Shown: positions 5,668 to 32,000 of the stretch, one piece after another | How positions within the stretch are numbered: position 1 is the first letter of the stretch | Layout of the letters: every line of letters begins with the position of its first letter | From: Geotalea daltonii FRC-32 | GTDB taxonomy: Bacteria > Desulfobacterota > Desulfuromonadia > Geobacterales > Geobacteraceae | Assembly: GCF_000022265.1 (NCBI RefSeq) | Contig: NC_011979.1 | Location: 750,001 to 782,000, forward strand | DNA: 32,000 bases | Direction: 5' to 3' | Notes under the pieces: model-generated | Seen by the model: the letters and a program-made list of their open reading frames with translations, nothing else | The model's database searches: none | What the model was told of the DNA's origin: nothing | Position numbers and translations under genes: made by a program

Positions 5668-5731
5668 TATTACTTTCGATTCGCAAATTAAAATAAGAGC
5701 TCAGGGGGGTGCCCCTGCTAAGGAGGAAGCT

Positions 5732-5929: not shown

Positions 5930-5951
5930 CAAGGCCCCAGCCTTGAAGATT

Positions 5952-5996: not shown

Positions 5997-6030
5997 AGCA
6001 GGTCTGCAAAAGTACAAGCCAAGGACATCA

Positions 6031-6720
6031 ATGAAGGTTGCTCTTCTCCAACACACCCCCGATCCGGAACTCACCGTAGCCCTTGCTGCGCGCCTCTGCT
6101 ATTCCAAAGTGGGCATCGACGAGCTGAAGCAGAAACTCACCAGCAGTGATATCGATTCCTTCCTTGACAAGATCATGTCCCTCGGCCATCAATCAGTCCT
6201 GGAGCATGCCTCTTTTACCTTCGGTATCGAAGGCATTTCAAGGGTAACTTCCCACCAGTTGGTTCGCCATCGTGTTGCCTCCTATTCCCAGCAGTCCCAG
6301 CGCTATGTCTCCCACAAGGAACAGTTTGCGGTGGTGGTGCCACCAGAGATTGCCAAGAATCCCGAGATGCTGGAGATGTTTCAGGAACAGATGGGGCAGC
6401 TGCATGAATGTTATGCCCGGATGGTAGATGGGGGAATTCCAGCGGAAGATGCCCGTTACCTGCTGCCCAATGCAACCGAGACCAAGATAGTGGTAACCAT
6501 GAACGCCCGGGAGTTACTGCATTTTTTTGCGGTACGATGCTGCGAACGCGCCCAGTGGGAAATCAGGGCCATGTCCGTTGAGATGCTCAGGCTTGTTCGG
6601 GATATTGCCCCGATTATCTTCCGCAATGCAGGTCCAGGTTGTTTAGGCGGGCCATGTCCTGAGGGGAAAATGACCTGTGGCAGGGCTCAAGAAATCAGGG
6701 AGAAATTCCATAACCTGTAA
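6031..6720 (+). CDS. thyX: FAD-dependent thymidylate synthase ThyX
   Basis: ThyX signature RHRVASYSQQSQRY, plus SVLEHASFTF. Confidence 0.9.
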   Translation: MKVALLQHTPDPELTVALAARLCYSKVGIDELKQKLTSSDIDSFLDKIMSLGHQSVLEHASFTFGIEGISRVTSHQLVRHRVASYSQQSQRYVSHKEQFAVVVPPEIAKNPEMLEMFQEQMGQLHECYARMVDGGIPAEDARYLLPNATETKIVVTMNARELLHFFAVRCCERAQWEIRAMSVEMLRLVRDIAPIIFRNAGPGCLGGPCPEGKMTCGRAQEIREKFHNL

Positions 6721-6757
6721 GTGGCAGGGGAAGCCTGCCAAAGGCGGTGAGGTCTTA

Positions 6758-7672
6758 ATGAGCAAAATAAATATCGGTGGACAGGCAGTAATTGAGGGAG
6801 TAATGATGCGGGCGCCCCGCTCCATGGCCATTGCTGTCAGGCGTCCATCCGGAGAGATCGTGGTAAAGAAGGATGAAGTTATTCCCCTTTCCGAACGATT
6901 TCCAGTGGTAAAGCTTCCCATCATCCGTGGAGCAGTGGCTCTGTTCTCGTCCCTGATCATCGGCATTACGGCCTTGAATTTTTCTGCAAACGAGGCAATG
7001 GCTGAGGAAGAAAAGGAAGAAGGCAAAAAGGACATATCTTCCTGGGCCATGGCAGGCACCATGGCAGTGGCCTTCGGCTTCGGCATCCTCCTCTTTTTCA
7101 TTCTGCCCCTTTACCTGACCAAGCTTCTCGTCCCCATCATCGGCGATTCAAACATTGTTTTTAATCTGGTAGATGGTGTCATCAGGGTAGCGGTGTTCAT
7201 CCTCTATATCTTTTCCATTTCCCGTATGAATGATATTCAGCGGGTGTTCCAGTATCACGGTGCCGAACACAAGTCCATCTTCGCCTTTGAGGCCGGAGAG
7301 GACCTGACGGTGGAAAACGTGCGCAAGTACAGCTGTCTGCATCCCCGCTGCGGTACCAGTTTCCTGCTCATCGTCATGCTGGTCAGTATTCTTGTTTTCT
7401 CCCTCATCCCCAAGCTGTGGCCTTTTTATCTCAAGGCGGGCTCAAGGGTGGTGCTTTTGCCCTTGATTGCCGGCTTATCCTACGAGATTCTCAAATGGAG
7501 CGCCAAGCATGACCATCTGCCCATAGTCAAGCTCCTTATCTCTCCGGGACTGGCCCTGCAACGCCTGACGACCAGGGAGCCGGACGACAGCCAGCTTGAG
7601 GTGGCAATCCGTTCCATGGAGGAAGCACTGGAAGTAAACGCCGGATACAAGGATGACCGTCTTGTTGTTTAA
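6758..7672 (+). CDS. DUF1385 (YqhQ-like) membrane protein
   Basis: MSKINIGGQAVIEGVMMRAP...YHGAEHK is typical of DUF1385. ATG 6758 follows GGTGAGG. The track start at 6677 overlaps thyX and is unlikely. Confidence 0.8.
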   Translation: MSKINIGGQAVIEGVMMRAPRSMAIAVRRPSGEIVVKKDEVIPLSERFPVVKLPIIRGAVALFSSLIIGITALNFSANEAMAEEEKEEGKKDISSWAMAGTMAVAFGFGILLFFILPLYLTKLLVPIIGDSNIVFNLVDGVIRVAVFILYIFSISRMNDIQRVFQYHGAEHKSIFAFEAGEDLTVENVRKYSCLHPRCGTSFLLIVMLVSILVFSLIPKLWPFYLKAGSRVVLLPLIAGLSYEILKWSAKHDHLPIVKLLISPGLALQRLTTREPDDSQLEVAIRSMEEALEVNAGYKDDRLVV

Positions 7673-15978: not shown

Positions 15979-16308
15979 GTGAATGACATGAATGATGATA
16001 TCCTGCAGGCCGTCTATCGGGTTATCCTGGAGCGGAAGGCAAATCCCTCGGAGCAGTCTTATACCGCTTCTCTTATGGCCAAGGGCATCGACAAAATCCT
16101 GAAGAAGCTGGGCGAAGAGGCAACCGAAGTGGTGATAGCGGGTAAAGGGGGGGCGCGTGAAGAGATCATTTACGAAACTGCCGACCTGTTTTTTCACACC
16201 CTGGTCCTTCTTGGATATTGTGATATAAATCCTGATGAGATATACGATGAACTGCGACGCAGGTTCGGTATGTCGGGGATTGCCGAAAAGGAATCCCGTG
16301 ACAGGTGA
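15979..16308 (+). CDS. hisE: Phosphoribosyl-ATP pyrophosphatase
   Basis: SYTASLMAKGIDKILKKLGEEATEVVIA...ETADLFFHTLVLL. The start is GTG 15979 or ATG 15988. Confidence 0.85.
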   Translation: MNDMNDDILQAVYRVILERKANPSEQSYTASLMAKGIDKILKKLGEEATEVVIAGKGGAREEIIYETADLFFHTLVLLGYCDINPDEIYDELRRRFGMSGIAEKESRDR

Positions 16309-16328
16309 AAAATCGTTAAAGTTTTTCC

Positions 16329-16356
16329 TTGACATTATAGTGACGGGTGCTATTAT
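16329..16356 (+). promoter_or_regulatory. Candidate extended -10 sigma70 promoter of the rpsU operon
   Basis: TTGACA (16329-16334), a 16-nt spacer ending in TGC, then TATTAT (16351-16356). Confidence 0.5.
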
Positions 16357-16434
16357 GCATAGTCCTTGTAAATAGTCTGCCGGCCTTAACCTTGATTATA
16401 AGTAAATTTATATACAGGAGGGAGGGGAACATGA

Positions 16435-16632
16435 ATGCCGGGAGTAAGGGTAAAAGAAGCTGAGCCGTTTGAGCTCGCCTTGAAAAAATTCAAGAAACAG
16501 TGCGAAAAAGCGGGGATTTTGTCAGAAGTCCGCAAAAGAGAGCACTACGAAAAGCCTAGCATCAAAAAGAAGAAAAAGGCTATTGCTGCTCGCAAGAGAG
16601 CATTGAAAAAACAGCGTAAGATGATAGATTAA
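16435..16632 (+). CDS. rpsU: 30S ribosomal protein S21
   Basis: [43 protein letters not shown] strong GGAGGGAGGGG RBS region. Confidence 0.95.
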
Positions 16633-16642
16633 GAGGTCTCAT

Positions 16643-17086
16643 ATGTCTTTGCGGGAACGGCTTAACGATGAGCTGAAGGCTTCCATGAAGTCAAAGGATA
16701 ATCTCAAGCTGTCCGTAATCCGCATGGTTCGCTCATCAGTAAAGAACCGGGAAATCGATCAGCAGCACGAGCTTGATGACCGGGAAATTATTGAGATCAT
16801 CAGTACGCTCTGCAAACAGCGTAGGGAATCCATAAGGCTCTTTAAGGAAGCAAGCCGTCAAGACCTCGTGGATAAGGAAGAAAAAGAGTTGGCGCTGCTT
16901 CTGGAATTTCTGCCGCAGCAGTTGACTCGTGAAGAACTAGAAGAACTTGTCAGAAAGACAATTGCTGAAGGCGGCGCGCAGGGGTCCAAGGATATGGGCC
17001 GGGTCATGAAGGCCCTGCAACCGGGCGTTGCCGGTCGTGCAGACGGCAAATTAGTCAGCGATGTTGTCAAGGAACAGCTGGCCTGA
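16643..17086 (+). CDS. yqeY: GatB/YqeY domain protein
   Basis: MSLRERLNDELKASMKSKD...LSVIRMV...EFLPQQL...GKLVSDVVKEQL is typical of YqeY. Confidence 0.85.
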   Translation: MSLRERLNDELKASMKSKDNLKLSVIRMVRSSVKNREIDQQHELDDREIIEIISTLCKQRRESIRLFKEASRQDLVDKEEKELALLLEFLPQQLTREELEELVRKTIAEGGAQGSKDMGRVMKALQPGVAGRADGKLVSDVVKEQLA

Positions 17087-19531: not shown

Positions 19532-21292
<1,761 letters not shown>

Positions 21293-21301
21293 AATTGTAC
21301 C

Positions 21302-21335
21302 AGGCCGCACCGTCCAGAACGGCGCGGCCTTTTTA
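21302..21335 (+). terminator. Rho-independent terminator after rpoD
   Basis: AGGCCGCACCGT (21302-21313) pairs with ACGGCGCGGCCT (21319-21330) with one mismatch, followed by TTTTT. Confidence 0.65.
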
Positions 21336-21374
21336 ATAGCAGGGGGAAGGTCTCCACTGCAGCGAGGTTAAGGG

Positions 21375-22064
21375 ATGAAAAAGAAAGCAGTAATTCTCTA
21401 CAGTGGTGGTCTCGACTCCACTACTTGCATGGCAATTGCCCGTGAAGAGGGCTTTGAGCCCTATGCCATGAGCTTCGACTATGGCCAGCGGCACTCCGTG
21501 GAGTTGGCCACGGCCAAGGCCAACGCAAAGACAATGGGGGCCTCTGAACACCTGGTGGTCAGCTTCGACCTGCGCAAAGTCGGGGGAAGCGCACTGACGG
21601 CCGACTTGGATGTGCCGAAAGAAGGTATCGGGGCGGGAATCCCGGTAACCTATGTCCCGGCAAGAAATACCATTTTTCTTTCCTTTGCCCTGGGCTGGGC
21701 CGAGGTCCTTGGCGCCTTCGACATCTTCATCGGCGTAAATGCACTTGACTACTCGGGCTATCCCGATTGCCGCCCTGAATATATCGCTGCCTTTGAGGCA
21801 ACGGCCAATCTGGCCACCAGGGCCGGAGTTGAAGGGACTGGCAGATTTGTCATCCATGCTCCACTCATTGCCATGACCAAAGCAGAGATTATCCGCAAGG
21901 GCCTTGCCCTCGGGGTGGACTACGGCAGAACCCATTCCTGCTATGATCCTACCCCCGAAGGCCTAGCCTGTGGCCTCTGCGATTCATGTCGCTTGCGTCT
22001 GAAGGGTTTTGCCGAGGCAGGTGTGACTGATCCGGTCCCATATGCAGTGAGGAGCAAGAAGTGA
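21375..22064 (+). CDS. queC: 7-cyano-7-deazaguanine synthase
   Basis: PP-loop [19 protein letters not shown], and the C-terminal Zn cysteines [10 protein letters not shown]. Confidence 0.92.
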
Positions 22065-22133
22065 GGAGTGAGGAGAAACAACCAATGAAGGCAAAACAAA
22101 TGACTACCTCACCTCTCACCCCTCATCCCTCAC
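22047..22133. repeat. Inverted pair of GTGAGG-type heptamer arrays at the queC/folE2 junction
   Basis: GTGAGGAGCAAGAAGTGAGGAGTGAGGAG (22047-22075) faces CCTCACCTCTCACCCCTCATCCCTCAC (22107-22133). The core stem 22061-22073 pairs with 22107-22119: 13 positions, 1 mismatch and 1 wobble. Confidence 0.65.
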
Positions 22134-22915
22134 CGGATGTCATGCCCGATATGCAGAAATCCCGCGACAACCGCAATATCCCCATCAGCAAGGTTGGGGT
22201 CAAGGATATCTCGTATCCGATCGTCGTCATGGACAAAAACAAGTCCATCCAGCATACCGTTGCCCGCATCAACATGTACGTCGACCTCCCCCATCATTTC
22301 AAAGGGACGCACATGAGCCGCTTCATCGAGATCCTCAACGTCTACCGGGAAGAAATCGCTTTAGACAAGATGGAGGCCATGCTGCAGAAGATGAAGGAAA
22401 AATTGGGAGCAAGCACTGCCCATCTGGAGATAGAATTTCCCTATTTCATCGAGAAAAAAGCCCCTGCTTCGGGAGCCAAAAGCCTGATGGAATATACCTG
22501 CGAGTTCAGCGCCAGCCTTGCCTCCGACTTCGACTTCGTTCTCGGCGTCAGGGTGCCCGTTACCTCCCTCTGTCCGTGCAGCAAGGAACTGTCCCGGTAT
22601 GGCGCCCATAACCAGCGCAGTATCATGACGGTCAAGGTCCGTTACCGTGAGTTCATCTGGATCGAGGATCTTATCGAGATCGTTGAAGGGTGCGGTTCCA
22701 GTCCGGTATATTCTCTTCTTAAGCGCGAGGATGAAAAGCTGGTTACGGAAAGGGCTTATGAAAACCCGAAATTCGTAGAGGACATGGTGCGTGAGGCAAC
22801 CGAGAAGCTTCTCTCCATGGACAAAATTACCTGGTTCTCCGTGGAGGCAGAGAACTTCGAGTCAATTCACAAACATTCAGCATATGCCGCCATAGAGCGG
22901 GATAAGATGGGCTGA
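22085..22915 (+). CDS. folE2: GTP cyclohydrolase I type 2 (FolE2/MptA family)
   Basis: DMQKSRDNRNIPISKVGVKDISYPIVV...GTHMSRF...SLCPCSKE...HNQRS is typical of FolE2. The start is uncertain: ATG 22085 has AGGAG 9 nt upstream, family-like sequence only begins near ATG 22142, and the track start GTG 22061 lies inside the repeat. Confidence 0.85.
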   Translation: MKAKQMTTSPLTPHPSPDVMPDMQKSRDNRNIPISKVGVKDISYPIVVMDKNKSIQHTVARINMYVDLPHHFKGTHMSRFIEILNVYREEIALDKMEAMLQKMKEKLGASTAHLEIEFPYFIEKKAPASGAKSLMEYTCEFSASLASDFDFVLGVRVPVTSLCPCSKELSRYGAHNQRSIMTVKVRYREFIWIEDLIEIVEGCGSSPVYSLLKREDEKLVTERAYENPKFVEDMVREATEKLLSMDKITWFSVEAENFESIHKHSAYAAIERDKMG

Positions 22916-22922
22916 ATCTGCT

Positions 22923-22962
22923 TGTGGATAAATCTGTTGAAAATCCCGGAAATTGTGGATAA
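22923..22962. promoter_or_regulatory. Two perfect consensus DnaA boxes (TTATCCACA on the minus strand) in direct orientation, 31 bp apart
   Basis: TGTGGATAA at 22923-22931 and at 22954-22962. Each lies within the identical 11-mer TTGTGGATAAA (22922-22932 and 22953-22963). Confidence 0.6.
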
Positions 22963-22989
22963 AGCTAAATTTTACCAACTCATTAGTGA

Positions 22990-23697
22990 GTGTTGAGGCC
23001 TGCAATTTTGACGAAAAAAGCCCTCCTCATCTTTGCCAAGGAGCCTGTGGCAGGAGAGGTGAAAACCCGCCTCATCCCATATCTGTCGTCAGAGGCCGCT
23101 GCCGAATTATACCGCTGCATGCTCATGGATACCCTGGCCAAGGCAGCTACGCTCAAAGACGTGGATCTCTTTCTTTTTTACCATGGAGGTGCGGAGGCGG
23201 CTGCCTATTTTGATGGGTTGACAGAGGGCATGAATTTTCTGCCCCAAAGCAGTGGCGATCTTGGCGATCGGATGAAGCGCGCATTCAGGCAAGTCTTTGA
23301 ACTTGGCTACGGCAGGGCAGCGGTTATCGGGACAGATTCGCCGGATCTGCCCCTTGCCTACATCAGGGAGGCATTCCTCAAGCTGGAAGATGAGCACATC
23401 CAGGCAGTCTTCGGCCCCAGCCATGACGGAGGTTATTATCTGCTGGGACTGAAGCAGCTGCATGGTGAGCTTTTCCAGGGGATTGCCTGGTCCAGCAGCA
23501 CGGTACTGGCTGACAGCCTTGCTGCGGCTGGGAAAGGGGGTATCGGCGCGGCGCTCCTGGCAGCGTGGCACGATGTGGATACCGCCAACGACCTGCTCAG
23601 ACCTGAGCTTTTGGAATCAGCTAACGGCGCTGAACTGACGCGGGCGTTTCTCCTTGGCAGGATGAGTCCGGATCATTTCAACACCTCCAGTCCATAG
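22990..23697 (+). CDS. DUF2064 / TIGR04282-like nucleotidyl- or glycosyl-transferase-fold protein
   Basis: ALLIFAKEPVAGEVKTRL...GDLGDRM...AVIGTDSPDL...GPSHDGGYYLLG matches the DUF2064 pattern. The start is GTG 22990 or TTG 23008. Confidence 0.7.
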   Translation: MLRPAILTKKALLIFAKEPVAGEVKTRLIPYLSSEAAAELYRCMLMDTLAKAATLKDVDLFLFYHGGAEAAAYFDGLTEGMNFLPQSSGDLGDRMKRAFRQVFELGYGRAAVIGTDSPDLPLAYIREAFLKLEDEHIQAVFGPSHDGGYYLLGLKQLHGELFQGIAWSSSTVLADSLAAAGKGGIGAALLAAWHDVDTANDLLRPELLESANGAELTRAFLLGRMSPDHFNTSSP

Positions 23698-24881
23698 CCA
23701 CGCTTATCCAGATATTCAACGGTCTCCCGGATATGCTCGAACCCCCGCGTTTCCAGTTCCAGCAGGACTTCCGTCTTGCCGATGGGAAGTGCTTTAGAAC
23801 GCCGGTCGTGGGTGATGAGCGAAATGTTTGCGTTGGTGGCTGCGATATCCGCTGACAGCCTTGCCAGCGAGCCCGGCACATCATCCAGTTCCACCTTCAG
23901 CTTCAGATAGCGACCGGCGGCTAAAAGACCTCGCTCCACCACGATGGAGATGGTTTTGACATCGATATTCCCACCTGAGAGCAGGCATACCGTCTTCCCC
24001 GTCAGGGCATCCACCTTGCCGTTCAAAAGTGCAGCCAGCGTGACGGCGCCGGCTCCTTCCACCAAGAGCTTGCTTCTCTCCAGAAGCGAGACGATCGCCT
24101 GGGCGATTTCTTCCTCCTCAACCAATACCACCTCGTCAACCAAATCCCGAATGATGGGAAAGGTGTTTTTGCCGACCTTTTTCACGGCAATGCCGTCGGC
24201 CAGCGTCACCTTAATCGGGGTATCAGCAATAGCCCCCCGATGCAGCGAAGCATGCATGGATGGGGCGGCGACCGATTCGACGCCGATGATCCTCACCCGC
24301 GGACGAGTCTCCTTGATGGCCGAGGCGATGCCGGCGATGAGCCCACCACCGCCTATGGGGACGAGGATGTTGTCCACGTCAGGCAGTTGTTGGAGGATTT
24401 CCAGGCCGATGGTCCCTTGGCCCGCCATTACCAGTGGATCGTCGAAGGGATGAACGAACAGTGCCCCTGTCTCCTTCTGGGTCAGGAGAGCGGCTGCATA
24501 TGCTTCGTCGAAATTCTTTCCCGTCAGCACCACCTCTGCTCCGTAATCCCTGGTGGCGAAGACCTTCTGGGGCGGAGTACTTTCCGGCATGAAAACAACC
24601 GCTTTAACTCCGAGCAGGTCGGCTGAAAAAGCTACTCCCTGGGCATGGTTGCCTGCCGAGGCAGTAATTACCCCCTTTTCCAGCCTGATCCTCGGCTGTG
24701 CCGTCATAAAATTAAGAGCGCCGCGGATCTTGAAGGAACCCGTCCGTTGCAGGTTCTCACATTTGAGGAAGACCTGGGTACCGATTTTCTCTGTGAAATA
24801 ATGGGAATGGATCAGTTCGGTGCGACGCACCCTTTTTTTCAGGCGGTCATCCGCTTCATGGATCAGGCTGTATTCAAGCAT
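23673..24881 (-). CDS. ilvA: Threonine ammonia-lyase (PLP-dependent, single C-terminal ACT-like domain)
   Basis: PLP lysine motif TGSFKIRGALN, glycine loop PIGGGGLIAG, and a C-terminal regulatory domain. I prefer ATG 24881 (MLEYSLIHEADDRL, GGAG upstream). The longest ORF starts at 24974. Confidence 0.88.
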   Translation of the reverse strand: MLEYSLIHEADDRLKKRVRRTELIHSHYFTEKIGTQVFLKCENLQRTGSFKIRGALNFMTAQPRIRLEKGVITASAGNHAQGVAFSADLLGVKAVVFMPESTPPQKVFATRDYGAEVVLTGKNFDEAYAAALLTQKETGALFVHPFDDPLVMAGQGTIGLEILQQLPDVDNILVPIGGGGLIAGIASAIKETRPRVRIIGVESVAAPSMHASLHRGAIADTPIKVTLADGIAVKKVGKNTFPIIRDLVDEVVLVEEEEIAQAIVSLLERSKLLVEGAGAVTLAALLNGKVDALTGKTVCLLSGGNIDVKTISIVVERGLLAAGRYLKLKVELDDVPGSLARLSADIAATNANISLITHDRRSKALPIGKTEVLLELETRGFEHIRETVEYLDKRGYGLEVLK

Positions 24882-24979
24882 GGAGGGAAACTCCGAAGTG
24901 AAAAACAGTTGCGGGCGCTGGTCTGCTGTGTTGCCGTCCTTCATACCGGCTGCCCCATGACGTTTTTCAATCAATATCG

Positions 24980-25942
24980 TTAATGGTGATGGTGACCGTG
25001 GCTGCAGGCACCATGGTCATGGCTGTGGACTGCACGGGGACGATGGCGCATTTCCTTGATAATGGGGCCTTCGATACATTTTGTGCACTCGGCCTGCAAC
25101 GTGGTATGGGATATGTGGTAGCGTTCGAAAAGAAGCTCCTCAATGCGGCGCAGTACGGCTGTCTGGTCATCCTTGTAGTCGGGCAGGATGTCCACGTGGG
25201 CCGACAGGGCCAGAATATGGGAGCAGATGGTCCAGACGTTCAGGTGGTGAACGCTGTTGACTCCCTCTATGGTGCGGATCGCTTCCGATACCTGGGTGAT
25301 GCTCATGTTCCGCGGCACACCTTCCAGCAGGATATGAACGGATTCCCTGATGACGCGCCATGAACCCCAGAAAATGACAAAGCCGATGCCTACTGATACA
25401 ACTGCATCCAGCACATACCAGCCGGTGAAATACATGATCACGCCGCCGGCAATAACCCCGACGGAGGCGGCGGCGTCGCCGATGACATGGAGGAAGGCGC
25501 TGTGGACGTTGAGGTCGTCGTGGGAATGCTGATGCAGGGCCGAGGCGGACAGGAGATTCATGGCCAGGCCGACCAGGGCGATGATGAACATGGGGAGGCT
25601 CTTCACCTCTTCTGGGTGAAGGAACCTCCCCCATGCTTCATACATGATGCCGAAAGCGATGAGGAGAATCGAAACGCCGTTGATGAACGAGGCGAAGACC
25701 TCGGCCCGGTGCCAGCCGAAGGTGCGGGTTTCGGAAACGGGCATAGCGGCAAGCCTGATCGCCCCCAGGGACAAAAGCAGGGCGAACAGGTCAAGGAAAA
25801 CATGGGCCGCATCGGATAAAAGGGCTAGAGAATTGGTCCAGATGCCGCCTGCCACCTCTGCCACCAGAGTCAAGGAGGTGAGGACAATGGCATATTTGAA
25901 CCTGCCGGCGATACTTTTATCCAGATGTGCTTCAGCGCTCAT
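24980..25942 (-). CDS. czcD: Cation diffusion facilitator (Zn/Co/Cd efflux) transporter
   Basis: SLALLSDAAHVFLDL..., HVIGDAAASVGV, and a His-rich C-terminus HSHDHGACSHGHHHH. Confidence 0.9.
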   Translation of the reverse strand: MSAEAHLDKSIAGRFKYAIVLTSLTLVAEVAGGIWTNSLALLSDAAHVFLDLFALLLSLGAIRLAAMPVSETRTFGWHRAEVFASFINGVSILLIAFGIMYEAWGRFLHPEEVKSLPMFIIALVGLAMNLLSASALHQHSHDDLNVHSAFLHVIGDAAASVGVIAGGVIMYFTGWYVLDAVVSVGIGFVIFWGSWRVIRESVHILLEGVPRNMSITQVSEAIRTIEGVNSVHHLNVWTICSHILALSAHVDILPDYKDDQTAVLRRIEELLFERYHISHTTLQAECTKCIEGPIIKEMRHRPRAVHSHDHGACSHGHHHH

Positions 25943-25977
25943 GTGCGTTCCTGTTGAAGGCAGTTAATAGAACTATG

Positions 25978-26724
25978 TTAAAAGCTGACCGCCGCCTTCA
26001 GTGAATAAATGGGGCGTGCCGCATATTCAACTTCCGCGGTGATGCCCAAAAGCGGCAGGGGGGTCAGCTTCAGCCCGCCGAAGACGCGGGGCTGCCAGAG
26101 CTTTTCGCTTGCGAGTCCCGGGGAAAGGGTCAGTAGATTGCCCTTTGCCTTGCTGTCGATCCAGACCGCGCCCGCACCGGCATAGGGGGTGACCAGGACG
26201 AAGCCCTTGCTGATAGAGGCGTCGACACCGACCGTCTGCAGGTCCAGATCGCCGACACCTGCAAGTTTGGTGTAGGTGGCGCGGATACCGAGGGCAGGAG
26301 TCACGGTCGTTCCTTCCAGGATCGCCTTGCTGATCTCGGCGCCATAGAGCTTGATGTTGCTGTCCGGGACATAGGAATACATGGCGCCGATATCTATGCC
26401 GAAAGGAAGACCCTTGCGAACTCGGATTTTCGGCAGGTAGAGGTAAGAAGGAGCGTTCCCATTAAAGGCGTTTTGCCAATAATTATTAGTTCCATCTTTC
26501 TTGATGGACACGGCGGACACTTCGATTCCTGCATCGAAACCGGTAATGCCCAAGGGCTCTGCAGGGGCGGTATTTCTGTAGGCCATGGCCGTGCCGGCTT
26601 CCTTGGTCAAATGCTTGAAATCATCCTGCGTGAGTCCTGAGCTGAAACTGATGTCCCTTGCTGCAGCACTGCCGGCCATAAACAGGCCCAGGCATAAAAC
26701 CACCATAGAAATACGCTTAACCAT
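25978..26724 (-). CDS. Small predicted outer-membrane beta-barrel protein (signal peptide, alternating amphipathic strands, C-terminal Phe)
   Basis: MVKRISMVVLCLGLFMAGSAAA signal peptide; the protein ends YSLKAAVSF. AAGGAGG lies 5 nt upstream of ATG 26724. The track start at 26796 is an extension. Confidence 0.7.
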   Translation of the reverse strand: MVKRISMVVLCLGLFMAGSAAARDISFSSGLTQDDFKHLTKEAGTAMAYRNTAPAEPLGITGFDAGIEVSAVSIKKDGTNNYWQNAFNGNAPSYLYLPKIRVRKGLPFGIDIGAMYSYVPDSNIKLYGAEISKAILEGTTVTPALGIRATYTKLAGVGDLDLQTVGVDASISKGFVLVTPYAGAGAVWIDSKAKGNLLTLSPGLASEKLWQPRVFGGLKLTPLPLLGITAEVEYAARPIYSLKAAVSF

Positions 26725-26793
26725 TGCTTCCTCCTTGTGCATAGCAAATATATGTGTGTGAAGTTTAACAGAGCCCTGGCGCACGGTCAATGA

Positions 26794-27822
<1,029 letters not shown>

Positions 27823-27825
<3 letters not shown>

Positions 27826-27880
27826 GGAGTAAGGGGTGAGGGCTGAGGTGAAAAACCCGCCTTGCCTCCTCACCCCTCAC
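27823..27880. repeat. GTGAGG-type heptamer arrays forming a hairpin between trxB and comM
   Basis: 27829-27842 pairs with 27867-27880: 14 positions with 12 Watson-Crick pairs, 1 wobble and 1 mismatch. The next two flanking positions (27843-27844 with 27865-27866) are mismatched. The left array is four period-7 units starting inside the trxB stop codon. Confidence 0.6.
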
Positions 27881-27897
27881 CGAAAGACGGAGGTTCC

Positions 27898-28635
27898 ATG
27901 CTTGCCAAGGTTCTCAGCAGTGCCCTCTTGGGTATCGATGCCATAATGGTAGATGTGGAGGTGGATATTGCCCAGGGACTGCCTCAATTTGCCACAGTCG
28001 GGCTTCCTGACGGGGCGGTGAAGGAGAGCAAGGACCGGGTAAAGTCGGCGCTGAAAAATTCCGGTTACGAGTTCCCCAATCGCAAGATCACCGTCAACCT
28101 GGCCCCTGCCGATGTGAAAAAGGAAGGGGCAGCCTTCGATCTCCCCATCTCCATCGGCATCATGGCTGCAACCGGGATCGTCAAGCCCGACCACTTGAAG
28201 AAATACCTGCTTCTGGGGGAACTGTCCCTGGATGGGGGTGTCAAGCCGGTTCGGGGTTGTCTTTCCGTGGCCGTGGCGGCAAAAAATGCCGGGCTTGCCG
28301 GCATTATAGTTCCCGAAGAGAATGCCCGCGAAGGGGCGGTGGTCGAGGGAATAGAAGTTATCGGTGTTTCCGAACTGGCCCAGGTGGTGGAATTCCTCAA
28401 CGGCGAACGGCCCATTATTCCCTATTCAGTAGATATTCAACAGCTCTTTAGCCAGAGCTCCGAGCACAACGACGACTTTTCGGAAGTGAAGGGGCAGGAA
28501 CACGCCAAGCGGGCGCTGGAGGTGGCTGCTGCCGGTGGGCACAATATTTTGATATTGTGGCCTATAAAACCCCAGATATCTGCCATATCATTTGCTGACT
28601 CATATTTTACAGAACTCGCTTTCAAGGCGGCTTAA
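27898..28635 (+). pseudogene. comM: 5' half of comM/yifB (Mg-chelatase-like, Lon-protease-like N-domain), interrupted. Family-like sequence ends near 28553 and the rest of the ORF reads through into foreign DNA
   Basis: MLAKVLSSALLGIDAIMVDVEVDIAQGLPQFATVGLPDGAVKESKDRV...FSEVKGQEHAKRALEVAAAGGHNIL is the standard ComM N-terminus. The expected Walker A (GPPGxGKT) and the whole AAA+ C-terminal half are absent. Confidence 0.8.
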
Positions 28636-28671
28636 CATACCATTTTTGATTACCAACACTACTATTGACCG

Positions 28672-29202
28672 ATGAAATTACCTACAGCATTTCTTCCAAT
28701 CATATTTTTCTGCTTTGTATCAATCGTTCAAGCAGCTTCTATCCCTGCAACTGGCGTTATAGAAGCATTCTTTAGCCCGAACGGTGGCTGCACCGATGCA
28801 ATTGTTCGTGAAATCTGCAATGCAAAGTCCGAAGTATTGATCCAAGCATATTCTTTTACGTCCGTCCCGATCGCTAAAGCAATAGTTCAGGCCAAGAAAC
28901 GTGGTGTGAAAATCGAAGCTGTCCTTGATAAGAGTCAGCGAACCGGCAAGTATTCTGCTGCTACGTTCCTAGTCAACGCCGGAATTCCTGTATTGATTGA
29001 CGACCAACACGCGATAGCGCATAACAAAATTATCATCATCGACCGCAATACGCTGATAACGGGGAGTTTTAATTTCAGTAAGGCCGCTGAGGAGAAGAAT
29101 GCTGAGAACCTTCTAGTCTTTAAAGGGAACACGCCCCTTGTATTGCAATACATCCAGAACTTCGATCATCATAAAAGACATTCTGAGCCTTACAACCGAT
29201 AG
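28672..29202 (+). CDS. nuc: Phospholipase D-family endonuclease Nuc with a signal peptide
   Basis: Signal peptide MKLPTAFLPIIFFCFVSIVQAA; a single HKD motif HNKIIIID followed by GSFNFSKAAEEKNAEN. Size and layout resemble plasmid pKM101 Nuc. Confidence 0.85.
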   Translation: MKLPTAFLPIIFFCFVSIVQAASIPATGVIEAFFSPNGGCTDAIVREICNAKSEVLIQAYSFTSVPIAKAIVQAKKRGVKIEAVLDKSQRTGKYSAATFLVNAGIPVLIDDQHAIAHNKIIIIDRNTLITGSFNFSKAAEEKNAENLLVFKGNTPLVLQYIQNFDHHKRHSEPYNR

Positions 29203-29280
29203 TTTAAGTGTAGTTTATATTGTGAACAACTTGACCATTCGCGTGTCATGGTTACTGTAACCGCAGTTGGTTAAGCAAAT

Positions 29281-29688
29281 TCAACGAAGAAAACTGCAAA
29301 GCATATCACCAAGTTTATCAGAATCTTTCAGTTCGCATTCCCAGATGACAAGCACGCTCCATCCTTGTGCGCTCAACGCTTTCTTGTCCAATATATCACG
29401 CTTGCGATTTCGCTCTATCTTGGTTTGCCAATATGTTTGATTGGTTTTCGGAATGCGAGAGCCACGAGGGCAAGTATGTCCATGCCAAAAACAGCCATGA
29501 ACGAATATGACTTTACGTCGAGCGGGTAGAACTATATCTGGACAACCGGGGAGGTCTGCACGGTGGATACGGAAGCGGAAACCCATTCGGTGAAGCATGG
29601 ATCTTACCGCCTTTTCAGGGGAAGTGTTTTTTCCGTGTACCTGACGCATGATTTCACTTCGCTTTTCAGAAGTGAACACGTCCGCCAT
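29281..29688 (-). CDS. vsr: Very short patch repair (T:G mismatch) endonuclease
   Basis: SEKRSEIMRQVHGKNTSPEKAVRSMLHRMGFRFRIH...PDIVLPARRKVIFVHGCFWHGH.C......PKTN..YW..KI..N..RD. ATG 29688 lies 1 nt after the upstream stop. The track start at 29829 is an overlapping extension. Confidence 0.9.
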   Translation of the reverse strand: MADVFTSEKRSEIMRQVHGKNTSPEKAVRSMLHRMGFRFRIHRADLPGCPDIVLPARRKVIFVHGCFWHGHTCPRGSRIPKTNQTYWQTKIERNRKRDILDKKALSAQGWSVLVIWECELKDSDKLGDMLCSFLR

Positions 29689-29689
29689 G

Positions 29690-30412
29690 CTATTCTTCTT
29701 CGTTGATTTCAGCTGCGAGTTCGCATCGACGCTCAGAAAGCCATTGAAGTCTTTTGGCCTGGGTGAGGAGAACCTTTCGCAAACCCTTTTGCACTTTGCG
29801 TTCGCAGATAACTTGGGCAAGTCTAGCAAGCGTCATAGCACGGCGGGCAATCCGTAAATCGGGATGATCACGCAATGCGCTTACTTCGTCGGTAACAATG
29901 CGTTCCTTATGGGATTGGGGAACTTCTATTTCTACGCGAGGAGCTGGAGGGTCTTTTTCGTTAAGAACGGCCCCGAAACGTGACTCGTTAAGCAGTTTTT
30001 GGAAGATATTATATTCCAAGGCGTCCAGATGTTCTTTTGCAACCTTTTTCGCGGCTTTGTCGTTCTTTCCGATTTCCTGAAACTGCGGCAAGGGCCATAC
30101 TTCGATATAGCACACTTCAAATGGGTCGAGAACGTTCATCGCTACTGCGTCAGTTCGCTGGTTGGTTAGATGGCGGCGGATGCGCGTTCTAAGCTGTTCG
30201 TTGGTTTGCCCGACATAAATCGGTTCCCCATCATAGTCATAGAAGGCATACACGCCCCATATATAATTTCCTAGCTTGGCCGGAGTTTCACCAGAGACGT
30301 CAACCACTTTATCGAGAAAACTGGTAAGCGCTTCGCGAAGATGTTTAGTCTCAAAAGGTAATTCAGCTATATCTAAGGTAGGTGGTCTGAAATCATGTTG
30401 TTCTTCTGGCAT
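29690..30412 (-). CDS. GIY-YIG nuclease-domain protein, candidate restriction endonuclease of the adjacent methyltransferase
   Basis: WGVYAFYDYDGEPIYVGQTNEQLRTRIRRHL...YIEVW...EYNIF...LNEK fits GIY / YIG / R..H / E / N spacing. ATG 30412-30410 shares one base with the dcm stop TGA 30414-30412. Confidence 0.65.
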   Translation of the reverse strand: MPEEQHDFRPPTLDIAELPFETKHLREALTSFLDKVVDVSGETPAKLGNYIWGVYAFYDYDGEPIYVGQTNEQLRTRIRRHLTNQRTDAVAMNVLDPFEVCYIEVWPLPQFQEIGKNDKAAKKVAKEHLDALEYNIFQKLLNESRFGAVLNEKDPPAPRVEIEVPQSHKERIVTDEVSALRDHPDLRIARRAMTLARLAQVICERKVQKGLRKVLLTQAKRLQWLSERRCELAAEINEEE

Positions 30413-31557
30413 CAGGCAGCGCACCTCATAGCGGATTTATTTGCATTCAAAACTTGCTCAATGATGTTTTTTGCGATATGGCGCACCACTGGAACCGCTA
30501 CACCGTCTCCGGCAAGGTGATACGCATCGTTATATTTCTCAGGCAAATGGTAACTTTCTGGCAAACCCATCAACCTGGCTGCCTCTCTGGGTGAGAGCAA
30601 GCGTGTCTTGACTTTATTGCCTTCGACCAAGATGATGATTTGCCGACTCGAACCGCCTGAAGGAGTTCTCAGGCATCCCGCGATATCATCGAAACGTACT
30701 TCTGCGCGCTGCCGTTTTATGCCTTCCTTGTCCTTTCGAGTGCGTTTATAGATGGTGCCGACAACGCGCTTTCCAGCTTTCTTCGCTTGGCTGAGCTTTT
30801 CAAGATTGATTGGCGACATCATACCGATTATGCGATTCGTTTCAAAAGGTGTGTGCCATTCAACGCCTTTCGGCTCATTCTCTACCATGTCCGAAAATGT
30901 CGTCGTGCGCGGTTTGGGAACAGGCAGATTCCACCATAACCATGATGCCCTGGCAGTCTCGGAAAGTAAATCGTAAGAAAGCCCGAGTGCGTCTGGATGC
31001 CAGCGTGGATCAGGAGCCCCAACAAGACGTTTTGGTACTTCTAACGTATTATGTATTGCAATTATGAATAGGCGAGGACGGCTATGCGGAAGAAAAAGAA
31101 CCGCGTCTATCACCATGGGACCACACCTATACCCGGCTTTAACCAGTTCTTCAATGATAATGGATAAGTCTTTTCCGTCGTGGCTCGTTACGGTACCGTA
31201 GACGTTTTCAAGGATAATTGTTTTCGGTGCGCGGCCTTCTTTCCGCAGCTTAGTTATCACATTCCAAAACGGCCAAAACGCTCCTGAACGTTCCCCGGCA
31301 ATACCTGCACCGTTACCGGCAAGTGACAAGTCTTGGCAAGGGAATGACGCCCAAGTTAAATCAGCCGTGCCTAGAAGCTGGGAGGTTTGGATTTTTGCGA
31401 CGTCTTCCACGACAAAATGATCATTTCCACGAAAATAAGTGCGGTAAGAAATAGCTTTTTTCGGGTCAAAGTCGTTGGCAAAAACGCACTCCCACCCCTT
31501 TCCAAGCCCAATTCTTGCCATTCCTCCGCCTGCAAAAAATTCATAAAAGGTTTTCAT
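30412..31557 (-). CDS. dcm: DNA (cytosine-5)-methyltransferase
   Basis: Motif I FFAGGGM, motif IV SFPCQDLS, motif VI ILENV, motif VIII HSRPRLF, motif X GDGVAVPV. Confidence 0.92.
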   Translation of the reverse strand: MKTFYEFFAGGGMARIGLGKGWECVFANDFDPKKAISYRTYFRGNDHFVVEDVAKIQTSQLLGTADLTWASFPCQDLSLAGNGAGIAGERSGAFWPFWNVITKLRKEGRAPKTIILENVYGTVTSHDGKDLSIIIEELVKAGYRCGPMVIDAVLFLPHSRPRLFIIAIHNTLEVPKRLVGAPDPRWHPDALGLSYDLLSETARASWLWWNLPVPKPRTTTFSDMVENEPKGVEWHTPFETNRIIGMMSPINLEKLSQAKKAGKRVVGTIYKRTRKDKEGIKRQRAEVRFDDIAGCLRTPSGGSSRQIIILVEGNKVKTRLLSPREAARLMGLPESYHLPEKYNDAYHLAGDGVAVPVVRHIAKNIIEQVLNANKSAMRCAA

Positions 31558-31627
31558 ACACGGCCACCCCTTTTAAAGCGAATAATATACCAAAAAACCA
31601 AATGAAATGGTATCCAATTTAGTTGTG

Positions 31628-32000
31628 TTATAATTCCAGCCCTAGTTTTTCGGCCTCTTTATTCGGCAACCATTTCATAAACTTGCCACATTCTGTGCAA
31701 ACTACCTTGTAGCGTTTGATTTTTTCAAAGTTGGGAACGTAATTTATAGTTTGATGTTTGCATTCGATTTTTGGCGGGGGTACATATACAGCATCAATGA
31801 GAAAATCTGTAAGCGACACTCGCTGCTCTAATCTTCTCATAGAAATGAATCTATTTGTGCAATCTCCTCCGCCACGAGCCCATTTTTCTTGGAAATAAGG
31901 CAATAAAACAGTTCCAGACGGGAGAAGATACCCGGCATATACACAACCCGGAAAATCTTTTTTCACAAACAGGCGCTTTTCGATTTCTTTCAGAGAGTAT
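31628..32000 (-). CDS. Hypothetical protein, 5'-partial (the frame is open to the window edge), with a C-terminal CxH-x18-CxxC motif
   Basis: The track ORF starts at GTG 31966, but I translated the same frame upstream (..YSLKEIEKRLF-V-KKDFPG..) and found no stop up to 32000. I recognised no family. It lies 70 nt upstream of dcm on the same strand. Confidence 0.5.
   Translation of the reverse strand, partial: YSLKEIEKRLFVKKDFPGCVYAGYLLPSGTVLLPYFQEKWARGGGDCTNRFISMRRLEQRVSLTDFLIDAVYVPPPKIECKHQTINYVPNFEKIKRYKVVCTECGKFMKWLPNKEAEKLGLEL

What the first reader, a model, noticed from the sequence alone, without database searches (positions are those of the whole stretch)
28540..32000. comM/yifB is cut after its GGHNIL motif by an AT-rich island that runs off the window
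The ORF from 27898 reads as a normal ComM N-terminal half up to ...KRALEVAAAGGHNIL. Family members continue with the Walker A loop (xxGPPGxGKT) and an AAA+/Mg-chelatase half. Here the sequence becomes ILWPIKPQISAISFADSYFTELAFKAA* and stops. At the same point, hand-counted 60-nt lines drop from about 52-60% GC to about 35-45%. Every gene from there on is accessory-type (secreted Nuc, Vsr, GIY-YIG nuclease, C5 methyltransferase, unknown ORF). comM is a documented insertion hotspot for genomic islands in other bacteria, for example AbaR-type islands in Acinetobacter. No recombinase is visible in-window, so the element class (ICE, prophage, Tn7-like or other) is open.
Basis: partly seen in the sequence, partly recalled or inferred. 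Interest (0 to 1): 0.7.

Follow-up and report, generated by a model that had tools for sequence, protein, structure and literature searches.

The report
Serine-recombinase island splitting the comM gene
The competence gene comM of Geotalea daltonii is split just before its ATP-binding loop by a 10.5-kb mobile island that a large serine recombinase inserted; this is a clean example of an insertion type that is already known to be common.

Summary
The comM/yifB reading frame runs normally to ...AAGGHNIL (Leu218). It then reads into foreign DNA and stops at 28635, and GC falls from about 54-57% to 43%. A public contig 100% identical to the window extends it by 7.9 kb and shows the rest. The island is 10,543 bp long (window 28549 to extended coordinate 39091). 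The missing comM half (MIGPPGSGKT...) follows it in frame. A 613-aa large serine recombinase (LSR) gene lies at the far end. A metagenome contig 99.5% identical to the flanks carries uninterrupted comM, so both ends are defined. The crossover lies within TTGAT, and the inferred attP is a near-perfect palindrome. At least 38 of 85 loci with related recombinases (33-62% identity, many phyla) sit against a comM half broken at the same codon. The island is not Tn7-like and not a prophage. It carries a methylase/GIY-YIG/Vsr restriction-modification module, a PLD nuclease, a small serine recombinase, a repressor and a putative rolling-circle Rep-like protein. LSR integration into "Mg-chelatase/ComM" genes was already reported as the most frequent LSR target (Durrant 2022). 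This is therefore a new member of a known kind. A recurring tandem attP-like scar is a minor unexplained point.

The parts
27898..28553 (+). 5' part of comM/yifB: codons 1-218 plus 2 nt. It holds the ChlI domain and the first 28 profile positions of the AAA+ Mg_chelatase domain, ending ...GGHNIL.
   Evidence: It joins in frame to the 3' half on L001. The rejoined protein matches TIGR00368 at 627 bits in one stretch.
28537..28575 (.). attL. It consists of the host B half-site GGGCACAATAT(T), the crossover core TTGAT (28549-28553, probable central dinucleotide TT at 28549-28550) and the element P' half-site ATATTGTGGCCTATAAAACCCC.
   Evidence: Inverted repeat I4. Comparison of attL, attR and the empty site L104 confines the exchange to TTGAT. 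The P and P' half-sites are inverted copies of each other.
28554..28635 (+). Read-through tail of the truncated comM ORF into element DNA (ILWPIKPQ...FKAA*). It is not ComM sequence.
   Evidence: This stretch is absent from the empty site L104.
28549..32000 (.). Left 3.45 kb of a 10,543-bp integrative element. It continues off-window to extended coordinate 39091 (extended coordinate = 39891 minus L001 coordinate). Off-window parts, in L001 coordinates: CoiA-like nuclease gene start 8263<-7385/7442; small serine recombinase 6677-7288; YAcAr/SLOG 6243-6680; internal att-like site 6011-6050; ORFs 5520-5936 and 4884-5474; HUH-motif Rep-like 4176-4769; 55-77-aa ORF 3998-4231; Xre HTH 3562-3924; ORF 2962-3453; LSR 959-2800; attP-like palindrome 845-883; attR 785-820; comM 3' half 2-799.
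   Evidence: L001 is identical to window 20752-32000, with 0 mismatches in 11,249 nt. Element GC is 43.4% against 54.4% for the flank.
28672..29202 (+). Secreted PLD-family (HKD) nuclease of the Nuc/NucT type. It is the conserved end-gene of this element family.
   Evidence: PLDc_2, E 9e-26. NucT and DrmC-like hits. Orthologues with 71-88% identity sit at the same end of L002 and L003.
29281..29688 (-). vsr (very-short-patch repair endonuclease). The likely ATG is at 29688, 1 nt after the GIY-YIG stop.
   Evidence: Pfam Vsr E 5e-31 and TIGR00632 at 156 bits. Junction sequence.
29690..30412 (-). GIY-YIG nuclease-domain protein (240 aa) and candidate cognate restriction endonuclease. Its ATG overlaps the methylase stop by 1 nt.
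   Evidence: GIY-YIG E 1.7e-8. Gene call. TGATG overlap. The role as REase is inferred.
30412..31557 (-). C5 cytosine DNA methyltransferase.
   Evidence: PF00145 E 8e-48, TIGR00675 at 146 bits, PADLOC MTase models.
31628..32000 (-). 3' part of a gene for a 273-292-aa protein with a CoiA-like (PD-(D/E)xK-type) nuclease domain. The gene starts beyond the window.
   Evidence: CoiA_nuc E 1e-9 on the full protein from L001 7385-8263.

Best explanation
The window comes from Geotalea (Geobacter) daltonii FRC-32. Its comM/yifB gene encodes the AAA+ helicase that drives branch migration during natural transformation. The gene is interrupted between Leu218 and Met219, three codons before the Walker A loop GPPGSGKT, by a 10,543-bp integrative element. 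SHOWN: the element is bounded by hybrid attL and attR sites. These consist of about 22-bp inverted half-sites (consensus GGGGTTWTATWGGCCACAATAT) around a shared TTGAT core. The inferred attP is a near-perfect palindrome. The host attB (GGGCACAATAT-TTTG-ATGATCGGTCC) is the DNA that encodes G-H-N-I-L-M-I-G-P, and it partly mimics that palindrome. Joining the two comM halves across a single TTGAT core restores an intact in-frame comM, and a near-identical strain has exactly that empty site. The element encodes, at its far end and divergent from the comM 3' half, an intact 613-aa large serine recombinase (catalytic domain, recombinase domain, zinc ribbon with coiled coil). Related recombinases in many phyla sit at the same comM codon. 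INFERRED: the LSR catalysed attP x attB recombination, with a 2-nt staggered cut probably at the central TT and subunit rotation. Excision would need an unidentified directionality factor. Insertion abolishes ComM ATPase/helicase function. This should lower recombination of heterologous transforming DNA and so protect the island and other mobile DNA from being deleted by transformation. The rest of the island has three parts. The first is a cargo operon: YAcAr/SLOG protein, small serine recombinase, CoiA-like nuclease, C5 methylase, GIY-YIG nuclease, Vsr. It is a type II restriction-modification/defence module that also favours retention of the island. The second is a secreted PLD nuclease. 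The third is a backbone of an Xre repressor plus a small protein with the three HUH rolling-circle motifs. That protein would replicate the excised circle or act as a relaxase for mobilisation, so the element looks most like an integrative mobilizable element.
For: An identical contig extends the window. The att sites, the 10,543-bp length, the in-frame rejoining and the GC contrast are. The rejoined protein is a full YifB-family match. The empty site L104 is 99.5% identical over 808 bp of the 3' half and 100% identical over the last 50 bp of the 5' half, and the two are contiguous. The LSR profile matches TP901-1 and A118 integrase structures, and the coiled-coil segment is visible. The organism is identified. 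Relatives at 61% and 46% identity sit against a comM 3' half starting NIL|MIGPPG. In the survey, at least 38 of 85 loci have the LSR gene <600 bp from a comM half broken at residue 214-222, and 11 further loci have both halves 6-11 kb apart. The attB DNA is conserved across 49 metagenome contigs. The HUH motifs FITLTF / HxHxII / YxTK are invariant in orthologues. Translational coupling of methylase, GIY-YIG and Vsr is shown. Literature: Mg-chelatase/ATP-dependent-protease homologues are targeted by 12.4% of predicted site-specific LSRs, and competence genes are enriched as targets (PMC10083194). ComM function and the argument that comM-disrupting mobile elements benefit are in PMC11472951.
Against: No recombination, excision or circular form was observed. 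A scan of viral contigs for the attP palindrome gave only chance palindromes. No directionality factor could be named. The Rep/relaxase assignment rests on motifs and a sub-threshold Pfam hit (PF23343, E 5e-4). The AlphaFold model (pLDDT 82) matched HUH Rep domains only weakly (TM 0.51-0.57, E 0.07-0.15), alongside unrelated ferredoxin-like folds. No oriT or helper element is known. It is unknown whether G. daltonii is naturally transformable, so the fitness argument is by analogy. Which of the two nuclease candidates (GIY-YIG or CoiA-like) is the restriction enzyme was not resolved.
Confidence: 0.88

Rival explanations
1. The island is a Tn7-like (AbaR/Tn6022-type) transposon aimed at comM by a TniQ/TnsD-like target selector, as in Acinetobacter.
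For: comM is the classic target of AbaR-type Tn7-like elements (PMC11472951; PMC10293859, listed). A 5-bp sequence (TTGAT) is present at both junctions and once in the empty site, which on its face resembles a 5-bp target duplication. The left end contains TGTGG.
Against: None of the 14 ORFs of the complete 10.5-kb element has a TnsA/B/C/TniQ-type domain. Reading the ends as TGT...ACA leaves flanks that are not a duplication (GATAT versus ATATA). The ends are a single pair of inverted about 22-bp half-sites that form a palindromic attP, not arrays of TnsB sites. An intact LSR sits at the end, and its relatives track the same comM codon across phyla.
Confidence: 0.01
2. It is the same LSR-integrated element, but it is a phage satellite or a decayed LSR prophage that spreads by helper-phage packaging rather than by conjugative mobilisation.
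For: An integrase plus an Xre repressor plus a small Rep is a typical satellite or prophage-remnant core. The PLD nuclease and YAcAr proteins have PHROG matches (phrog_12711 E 2.5e-45; phrog_289 E 2e-29). LSR prophages do target this gene family, for example sr1WO of Wolbachia in the Mg-chelatase gene (PMC9203015). Four backbone ORFs have no recognisable function.
Against: There are no capsid, terminase, portal, tail or lysis genes, and no packaging-redirection homologues. Complete relatives are all 6-11 kb. No relative was found in IMG/VR by att pattern. The closest phage LSRs are only about 30-36% identical.
Confidence: 0.1
3. The insertion is a programmed, reversible switch like the Listeria comK prophage or the Bacillus skin/sigK element. 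The element would excise under defined conditions to restore ComM and then reintegrate, so the split gene is a regulated state rather than a knockout.
For: Joining the two halves across one TTGAT core gives an exact, in-frame comM. The LSR appears intact. An empty site exists in a 99.5%-identical population. Competence genes are enriched as LSR targets.
Against: There are no data on excision or expression and no identified directionality factor. The empty site is equally explained by a strain that never acquired the island. The defence cargo and the AT-rich composition point to a selfish mobile element.
Confidence: 0.08
4. The short comM is an ancestral truncated gene or pseudogene, and the AT-rich DNA is ordinary strain-specific sequence unrelated to site-specific insertion.
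For: None beyond the in-window appearance. The window alone shows no second half and no recombinase.
Against: The 3' half was found in frame 10.5 kb downstream. An uninterrupted allele exists in a near-identical relative. The same break point recurs in dozens of unrelated genomes, always next to an LSR gene.
Confidence: 0.005

Closest known systems
LSR-borne mobile elements that integrate into 'magnesium chelatase/ATP-dependent protease' (ComM/YifB) genes, catalogued computationally by Durrant et al. 2022 (PMC10083194)
   Same: The enzyme class is the same. The target gene family is the same, reported as the target of 12.4% of predicted site-specific LSRs. The logic of disrupting a competence gene is the same. 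This survey independently recovers the pattern (at least 38 of 85 relatives).
   Different: That study is a database-level statement. This particular Geotalea element, its att sites and its backbone are not described there ('daltonii' and 'Geobacter' are absent from the supplementary text held). None of the LSRs tested experimentally in that work was identified as a close relative here.
Prophage WO sr1WO of Wolbachia, whose LSR integrates into the Wolbachia Mg-chelatase gene (PMC9203015)
   Same: An LSR splits a Mg-chelatase-family gene so that portions of the gene flank the element, and attB can be rebuilt by concatenating the flanks.
   Different: WO is a full tailed prophage of tens of kb in an alphaproteobacterial endosymbiont. 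The element here is 10.5 kb with no virion genes. I did not test sequence relatedness of the recombinases or identity of the cut position.
AbaR/AbGRI (Tn6022-type, Tn7-like) resistance islands in Acinetobacter baumannii comM
   Same: Same target gene and the same consequence (loss of ComM and reduced transformation). Defence-system cargo in comM insertions is reported in PMC11472951.
   Different: The mechanism is entirely different: a DDE transposase with TniQ-type targeting and a 5-bp duplication, against serine-recombinase attP x attB exchange. No Tns/Tni genes are present here.
Listeria A118/phi10403S-type prophages in comK, and the Bacillus skin (SpoIVCA) and SPbeta (SprA) elements: LSR insertions inside genes that are restored by excision. 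The skin, SPbeta and phi10403S biology is from my own knowledge. The A118 integrase paper is PMC3556126 (listed).
   Same: An LSR inserts within a coding sequence, and rejoining the att sites restores the gene precisely. The target is a competence-related gene, as with comK.
   Different: Those are prophages or sporulation-linked elements of Firmicutes with demonstrated regulated excision. Here no excision data exist, the host is a Desulfuromonadia member, and the element is a small defence-carrying island.
Integrative and mobilizable elements (IMEs) with a site-specific serine recombinase and an RCR-initiator-type relaxase/Rep (Guedon et al. 2017, PMC5704250)
   Same: Small size, a single serine integrase, insertion that disrupts a dispensable gene, very short repeats at attL and attR, a small HUH/RCR-type protein, restriction-modification cargo and no conjugation pore genes.
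   Different: The described examples are almost all from Firmicutes. Relaxase activity, oriT and a helper element are unknown here, and the HUH assignment is motif-level only.

Membership tests
ComM/YifB (Mg-chelatase-like AAA+ competence helicase): identity of the interrupted gene | Full-length match to the YifB family model, with the ChlI N-domain, the AAA+ Mg_chelatase domain with Walker A, and the C-terminal domain | tested here: met
   The rejoined 483-aa protein (the contig ends about 20 aa before the C-terminus) matches TIGR00368 over model positions 1-480 of 499 in one stretch, 627.5 bits against a cutoff of 362.4. Pfam finds ChlI and the start of Mg_chelatase in the window half. The 3' halves in relatives carry Mg_chelatase plus Mg_chelatase_C.
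Large serine recombinase (serine integrase) integrative element | Recombinase with an N-terminal resolvase-type catalytic domain, a 'Recombinase' domain and a zinc-ribbon domain with an embedded coiled coil | tested here: met
   PF00239, PF07508 and PF13408 are all above their cutoffs in the right order. The segment 378-474 matches coiled coils, and the family profile matches TP901-1 and A118 integrase structures. PHROG 'integrase' E 4.5e-70.
Large serine recombinase (serine integrase) integrative element | Catalytic serine in the conserved N-terminal R-x-S-T motif, plus conserved catalytic arginines | tested here: met
   YIRFST at residues 13-18. R15, S17 and Q21 are conserved in at least 90% of sequences, and R94, S96 and R97 are invariant, across 25 homologues.
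Large serine recombinase (serine integrase) integrative element | attL and attR are hybrids of imperfectly palindromic attB and attP sites of about 40-50 bp. They share only a very short core and no long direct repeats. | tested here: met
   The P and P' arms are inverted copies. The reconstructed attP is GCCATAATAT-ATTG-ATATTGTGGC and the reconstructed attB is GGGCACAATAT-TTTG-ATGATCGGTCC. The shared core is TTGAT.
Large serine recombinase (serine integrase) integrative element | An unoccupied attB exists in related genomes, and removing the element restores it exactly | tested here: met
   L104 is contiguous across the junction, at 99.5% and 100% identity to the two flanks. 49 further intact attB sites were found in metagenomes.
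Large serine recombinase (serine integrase) integrative element | Demonstrated attP x attB recombination, and RDF-dependent attL x attR excision | not testable with these tools
   No circular junction was found. No RDF candidate can be assigned from sequence.
Tn7-like transposon (AbaR/Tn6022 type) | TnsA/TnsB(TniA)/TnsC(TniB)/TniQ genes near one end | tested here: not met
   All ORFs of the complete element were scanned against Pfam and NCBIfam, and none has these domains.
Tn7-like transposon (AbaR/Tn6022 type) | Terminal TGT...ACA inverted repeats with several internal TnsB-binding repeats, flanked by a 5-bp target duplication | tested here: not met
   There is only one half-site per end, plus one sporadic extra palindrome. 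With TGT...ACA ends the flanks GATAT and ATATA are not a duplication. The shared TTGAT lies inside the palindromic att core.
Temperate prophage | Virion structural, packaging and lysis genes | tested here: not met
   None is present in the 10.5 kb (Pfam, PHROGs).
Integrative mobilizable element (IME) | Own integrase/excision module and absence of a conjugative pore | tested here: met
   The LSR is present, and no T4SS or coupling-protein genes are found.
Integrative mobilizable element (IME) | Relaxase (canonical or RCR-initiator type) and oriT that allow mobilisation by a helper | tested here: inconclusive
   The 168-197-aa protein has invariant HUH-type motifs I-III and a sub-threshold PF23343 hit. 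The fold search gave only weak matches to viral HUH Rep domains. oriT and a helper element are unknown.
Type II restriction-modification cargo | Methyltransferase with an adjacent cognate endonuclease | tested here: inconclusive
   The C5 MTase is firm. The GIY-YIG gene is translationally coupled to it, and a CoiA-like nuclease gene lies upstream, but neither matches a named restriction-enzyme model. Vsr is firm.

The most novel reading that the evidence does not exclude
The Geotalea island and its closest relatives (L002, L003, L143, L144) may form an undescribed, modular family of about 10-kb elements. Their order is PLD nuclease | swappable restriction/defence cassette placed next to a small serine recombinase | HUH Rep-like | Xre repressor | LSR. 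Sister copies in one genome would be aimed at different host genes. The tandem attP-like scars at their ends would record competition or accretion at the same attB. The comM insertion might act as a reversible competence switch rather than a plain knockout.
Probability: 0.2. Interest if true: 0.5.

Novelty: new member of a known kind. Interest (0 to 1): 0.3.

Why it matters
The case gives a fully delimited, base-pair-resolved example of an LSR element in comM: attL, attR, inferred attB and attP, and a natural empty site. It comes from a metal-reducing deltaproteobacterial lineage where such elements have not been described. It also supplies a candidate attP/attB/integrase triplet for tool building. 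The comparative survey shows that one clade of serine integrases follows the same codon boundary of comM (GGHNIL|MIGPPG) across Desulfobacterota, Alpha-, Beta- and Gammaproteobacteria, Bacillota, Planctomycetota, Verrucomicrobiota, Bacteroidota and a cyanobacterium. This supports the view that mobile elements systematically disable the recombination step of natural transformation. For genome annotation, the 'short ComM' and the downstream 'Mg chelatase' fragment in G. daltonii should be read as one interrupted gene. None of this overturns current knowledge.

Tried and rejected
(1) A genome-collection scan with the single LSR protein found nothing. It had to be repeated with an alignment of homologues.

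(2) I scanned IMG/VR for the attP-type palindrome to catch a circular or packaged form. The 7 hits had no LSR, ComM or element genes and are chance palindromes or terminators.

(3) One metagenome att-pattern hit that was not comM (L109) lies inside an aldehyde-dehydrogenase-like ORF and is a chance match.

(4) A 10,529-bp contig carrying a Rep-like homologue looked as if it could be an excised circle. It is only a fragment of a related element, with no LSR or PLD gene.

(5) PDB sequence searches with the Rep-like protein and with the single LSR gave nothing. Only the LSR profile reached the TP901-1 and A118 integrases.

(6) The fold search with the Rep-like model was inconclusive.

(7) A Druantia reading of the methylase (best PADLOC model DruM2) was rejected because no other Druantia genes are present.

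(8) The Tn7-like reading was rejected (see rivals).

(9) I considered whether the extra attP-like site is an operator for the LSR promoter. This is unlikely as a general role, because in L057 and L003 the same structure sits at positions unrelated to the LSR promoter.

Full report
OBSERVATION. The ORF that starts at 27898 (ATG; the mechanical ORF starts at TTG 27862) reads as a normal ComM/YifB N-terminal half up to ...KRALEVAAAGGHNIL. It then continues as ILWPIKPQISAISFADSYFTELAFKAA and stops at 28635. Pfam finds a complete ChlI domain but only the first 28 of 207 positions of the Mg_chelatase AAA+ domain. GC in 500-nt windows falls from 56.6% (28001-28500) to 39-50% for the rest of the window. 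The genes that follow are a signal-peptide PLD-family nuclease, vsr, a GIY-YIG protein, a C5 methyltransferase and the tail of a CoiA-like nuclease-domain gene.

EXTENDING THE WINDOW. An exact-protein look-up with the methyltransferase returned a 19,139-bp assembly contig (L001). In reverse orientation it is identical to window 20752-32000, with 0 mismatches in 11,249 nt. It adds 7,890 bases beyond position 32000 (extended coordinate = 39891 minus L001 coordinate). At the far end lies a 613-aa large serine recombinase (LSR) gene. Directly beyond it, in the orientation and frame of the window's comM, the sequence reads ...ATT GAT GAT CGG TCC TCC CGG GTC GGG CAA GAC C = (I)LMIGPPGSGKT..., which is the missing Walker A-to-C-terminus half. 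The LSR is 100% identical to a protein of Geotalea (Geobacter) daltonii FRC-32, which identifies the organism. A Rep-like gene of the island is locus tag Geob_0717.

ENDS OF THE ELEMENT. attL is GGGCACAATAT TTTG ATATTGTGGCCTATAAAACCCC (window 28537-28575). attR is GGTTATATTAGCCATAATAT ATTG ATGATCGGTCC (extended 39071-39106). The element-side arms are inverted copies of one another, with consensus GGGGTTWTATWGGCCACAATAT, so the reconstructed attP is a near-perfect palindrome. The host-side arms encode G-H-N-I / M-I-G-P and partly mimic that palindrome. The two junctions share TTGAT (28549-28553 and 39092-39096), and core-to-core the element is 10,543 bp. Joining the flanks across one copy of the core gives an open frame. 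Its product matches the YifB-family model TIGR00368 over positions 1-480 of 499 in one uninterrupted stretch, 627 bits against a cutoff of 362.

THE EMPTY SITE. I scanned JGI metagenomes once with a degenerate pattern covering all four att combinations. It returned 50 contigs, of which 49 are intact comM genes. One of them, L104, is 99.5% identical over 808 bp to the comM 3' half. It continues without a break into 50 bp that are 100% identical to window 28504-28553. This is an unoccupied attB in a near-identical strain. Comparing attB with attL and attR confines the strand exchange to TTGAT. The centre of the attP palindrome falls on the TT, which is the first two bases of the Leu218 codon TTG. 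TT is therefore the probable crossover dinucleotide, but this is an inference.

WHAT THE ELEMENT IS. The 14 ORFs include no Tns/Tni transposition genes, no tyrosine integrase and no virion, packaging or lysis genes. The LSR has the canonical architecture. It has a resolvase catalytic domain with YIRFST, a recombinase domain and a zinc ribbon with a coiled-coil insertion. Its family profile reaches the TP901-1 and A118 integrase structures.

The rest of the island, in window orientation, is as follows.
- A PLD nuclease.
- One co-directional block on the minus strand: YAcAr/SLOG protein, a 203-aa small serine recombinase (Mpi-invertase-like, below cutoff), a CoiA-like nuclease, the C5 methylase, GIY-YIG and Vsr. 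The methylase stop and the GIY-YIG start overlap (TGATG). The GIY-YIG stop and the vsr start are 1 nt apart.
- Two unknown ORFs.
- A small protein with invariant HUH-type motifs FITLTF / HxHxII / YxTK.
- A 55-77-aa ORF, an Xre-type repressor and a lipoprotein-like ORF.
- The LSR.

I read the cargo as a type II restriction-modification/defence module with its Vsr repair partner. I read the backbone as that of a small integrative, probably mobilizable or rolling-circle-replicating, element. The HUH assignment is motif-level. Pfam PF23343 is sub-threshold. A confident AlphaFold model (pLDDT 82) matched the HUH Rep domains of wheat dwarf virus and PCV2 only weakly (TM 0.51-0.57, E about 0.1), among unrelated ferredoxin-like folds.

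A FAMILY THAT FOLLOWS ONE CODON OF comM. The nearest recombinases (61% and 46% identity, metagenomic) also sit divergently against a comM 3' half that begins exactly NIL|MIGPPG. I then scanned one genome per species with an alignment of 25 homologues, which gave 80 more loci at 33-51% identity. Across the 85 loci:
- At least 38 have the LSR gene within 600 bp of a comM fragment broken at residue 214-222.
- 7 more have comM fragments nearby.
- 11 show both halves 6-11 kb apart.
- All four arrangements of gene end versus comM half occur.

The hosts include Desulfoluna, Syntrophobacteraceae, Paraburkholderia, Bradyrhizobium, Afipia, Devosia, Bacillota MAGs, Planctomycetaceae, Verrucomicrobiota, Bacteroidota and a Synechococcus. 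The element-side half-sites are recognisably related (GGGTTAAAT...ACACAATAT types). One close relative (57% identity, L003) has switched target and splits a small secreted-protein gene instead. The element backbone is conserved in L002, L003, L143 and L144 while the cassette differs (Eco57I/XamI-type, N6-MTase, SmaI-type). The order is: PLD nuclease at one end, a small resolvase next to a variable R-M cassette, the Rep-like protein, the HTH repressor, and the LSR at the other end. The placement of a small serine recombinase beside defence genes matches a recently reported general association (PMC13552941).

HOW IT MOST LIKELY WORKS. Shown: the anatomy, the att sites, the empty site, the intact recombinase and the family-wide target. 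Inferred from established serine-integrase biochemistry: an LSR dimer on attP and another on attB synapse, make 2-nt staggered double-strand cuts at the central dinucleotide, rotate and religate. This gives attL and attR. The reverse reaction needs a directionality factor, which I could not identify. Inferred from ComM biology (PMC6158740, listed, and the discussion in PMC11472951): cutting the gene before Walker A removes the ATPase/helicase. This should reduce integration of heterologous transforming DNA. That in turn protects integrated mobile elements from being deleted by transformation. The R-M module would add phage defence and post-segregational stabilisation. Whether G. daltonii is transformable, and whether the island still excises, was not tested.

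COMPARISON WITH WHAT IS KNOWN. This kind of insertion is already documented. Durrant et al. [quoted passage not shown] The sr1WO prophages of Wolbachia integrate through an LSR into the Mg-chelatase gene (PMC9203015). IMEs with a serine integrase, an RCR-type relaxase/Rep, R-M cargo and gene-disrupting insertion are described mainly in Firmicutes (PMC5704250). The closest phage integrases are only about 30-36% identical. The Geotalea element itself and its att sites do not appear in the texts I could search. My verdict is a new member of a known kind.

LOOSE END. Between the LSR promoter region and attR, the Geotalea element carries a complete attP-like palindrome (GGCCACAATAT ACTA ATATTATGGCC, extended 39008-39046). 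About 26 bp of spacer separate it from the P arm of attR. The closest relative, L002, lacks these 73 bp. The same P-O-P' / spacer / P-O-B' arrangement occurs independently in a Rhizobiales genome (L057, LSR 36% identical) and at the opposite end of L003. It is found in only 2 of about 36 comM junction loci. A P-type half-site also lies upstream of the cargo operon in L001 and L002. These are most simply scars of tandem integration, or of elements carrying a duplicated attP, comparable to accretion at other integrase sites. I did not establish a mechanism.

VERDICT. The finding is real and was correctly interpreted, and it is now fully resolved. It is an ordinary, though very clean, instance of a known phenomenon, so its interest is modest.

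Noticed in passing
L001 845-883 plus 785-820 (extended window coordinates 39008-39046 and 39071-39106); also L057 12566-12660 and L003 17861-17945: A complete attP-like palindrome sits one short spacer (about 20-26 bp) inside the true junction, giving P-O-P' / spacer / P-O-B'. It occurs in three unrelated elements. The closest relative L002 lacks it, as do most other loci (only 2 of about 36 comM junction loci have it). It is possibly a scar of tandem integration or a duplicated attP.
   Followed up: partly
L001 6011-6050 (extended 33841-33880); L002 about 16715: A P-type half-site (GGGGTTATATTGGCCACAACA...) with a degenerate partner lies in the intergenic region upstream of the YAcAr / small-resolvase / cargo operon in two relatives, but not in L003. 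It could mark a module boundary (accretion) or an LSR binding site.
   Followed up: partly
Elsewhere in the G. daltonii FRC-32 genome (Geob_0595 region); L144, L145 and a contig without DNA from SRR29904083: A second, sibling element is present in the same genome. It has the same backbone order (PLD nuclease, N4/N6 methylase plus SmaI-like endonuclease, small resolvase, 68%-identical Rep-like protein, HTH). It has its own 619-aa LSR, which abuts a RadC-family gene. The other end is next to a dCMP deaminase gene. The target site was not determined.
   Followed up: partly
L003 7495-7525 and 17930-17950: An LSR 57% identical to the Geotalea enzyme, on the same element backbone, does not target comM. 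Instead it splits a roughly 225-aa secreted protein gene of unknown function (in-frame rejoining ...KPGATAE|GLWVAHW...). This is a target switch within the family.
   Followed up: partly
window 30410-30414 and 29686-29692 (minus strand): The methylase stop TGA overlaps the GIY-YIG ATG (TGATG). The GIY-YIG stop TAG is followed after 1 nt by the vsr ATG. This implies translational coupling of methylase, GIY-YIG nuclease and Vsr. A second nuclease candidate (CoiA-like, 31628 onward) lies directly upstream of the methylase.
   Followed up: partly
L010 8520-9881 (Deltaproteobacteria bacterium IMCC39146): Here a related LSR gene lies about 120 bp from a comM match that is uninterrupted over query residues 30-483 rather than a half. 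Either the insertion point is different (near the comM 5' end) or the arrangement is different.
   Followed up: no
window 4001-4500 and 16001-17000: Other local GC dips (38.8% and 47%) occur in an otherwise 50-60% GC window. No tRNA genes are present anywhere in the window. I did not examine these regions further.
   Followed up: no
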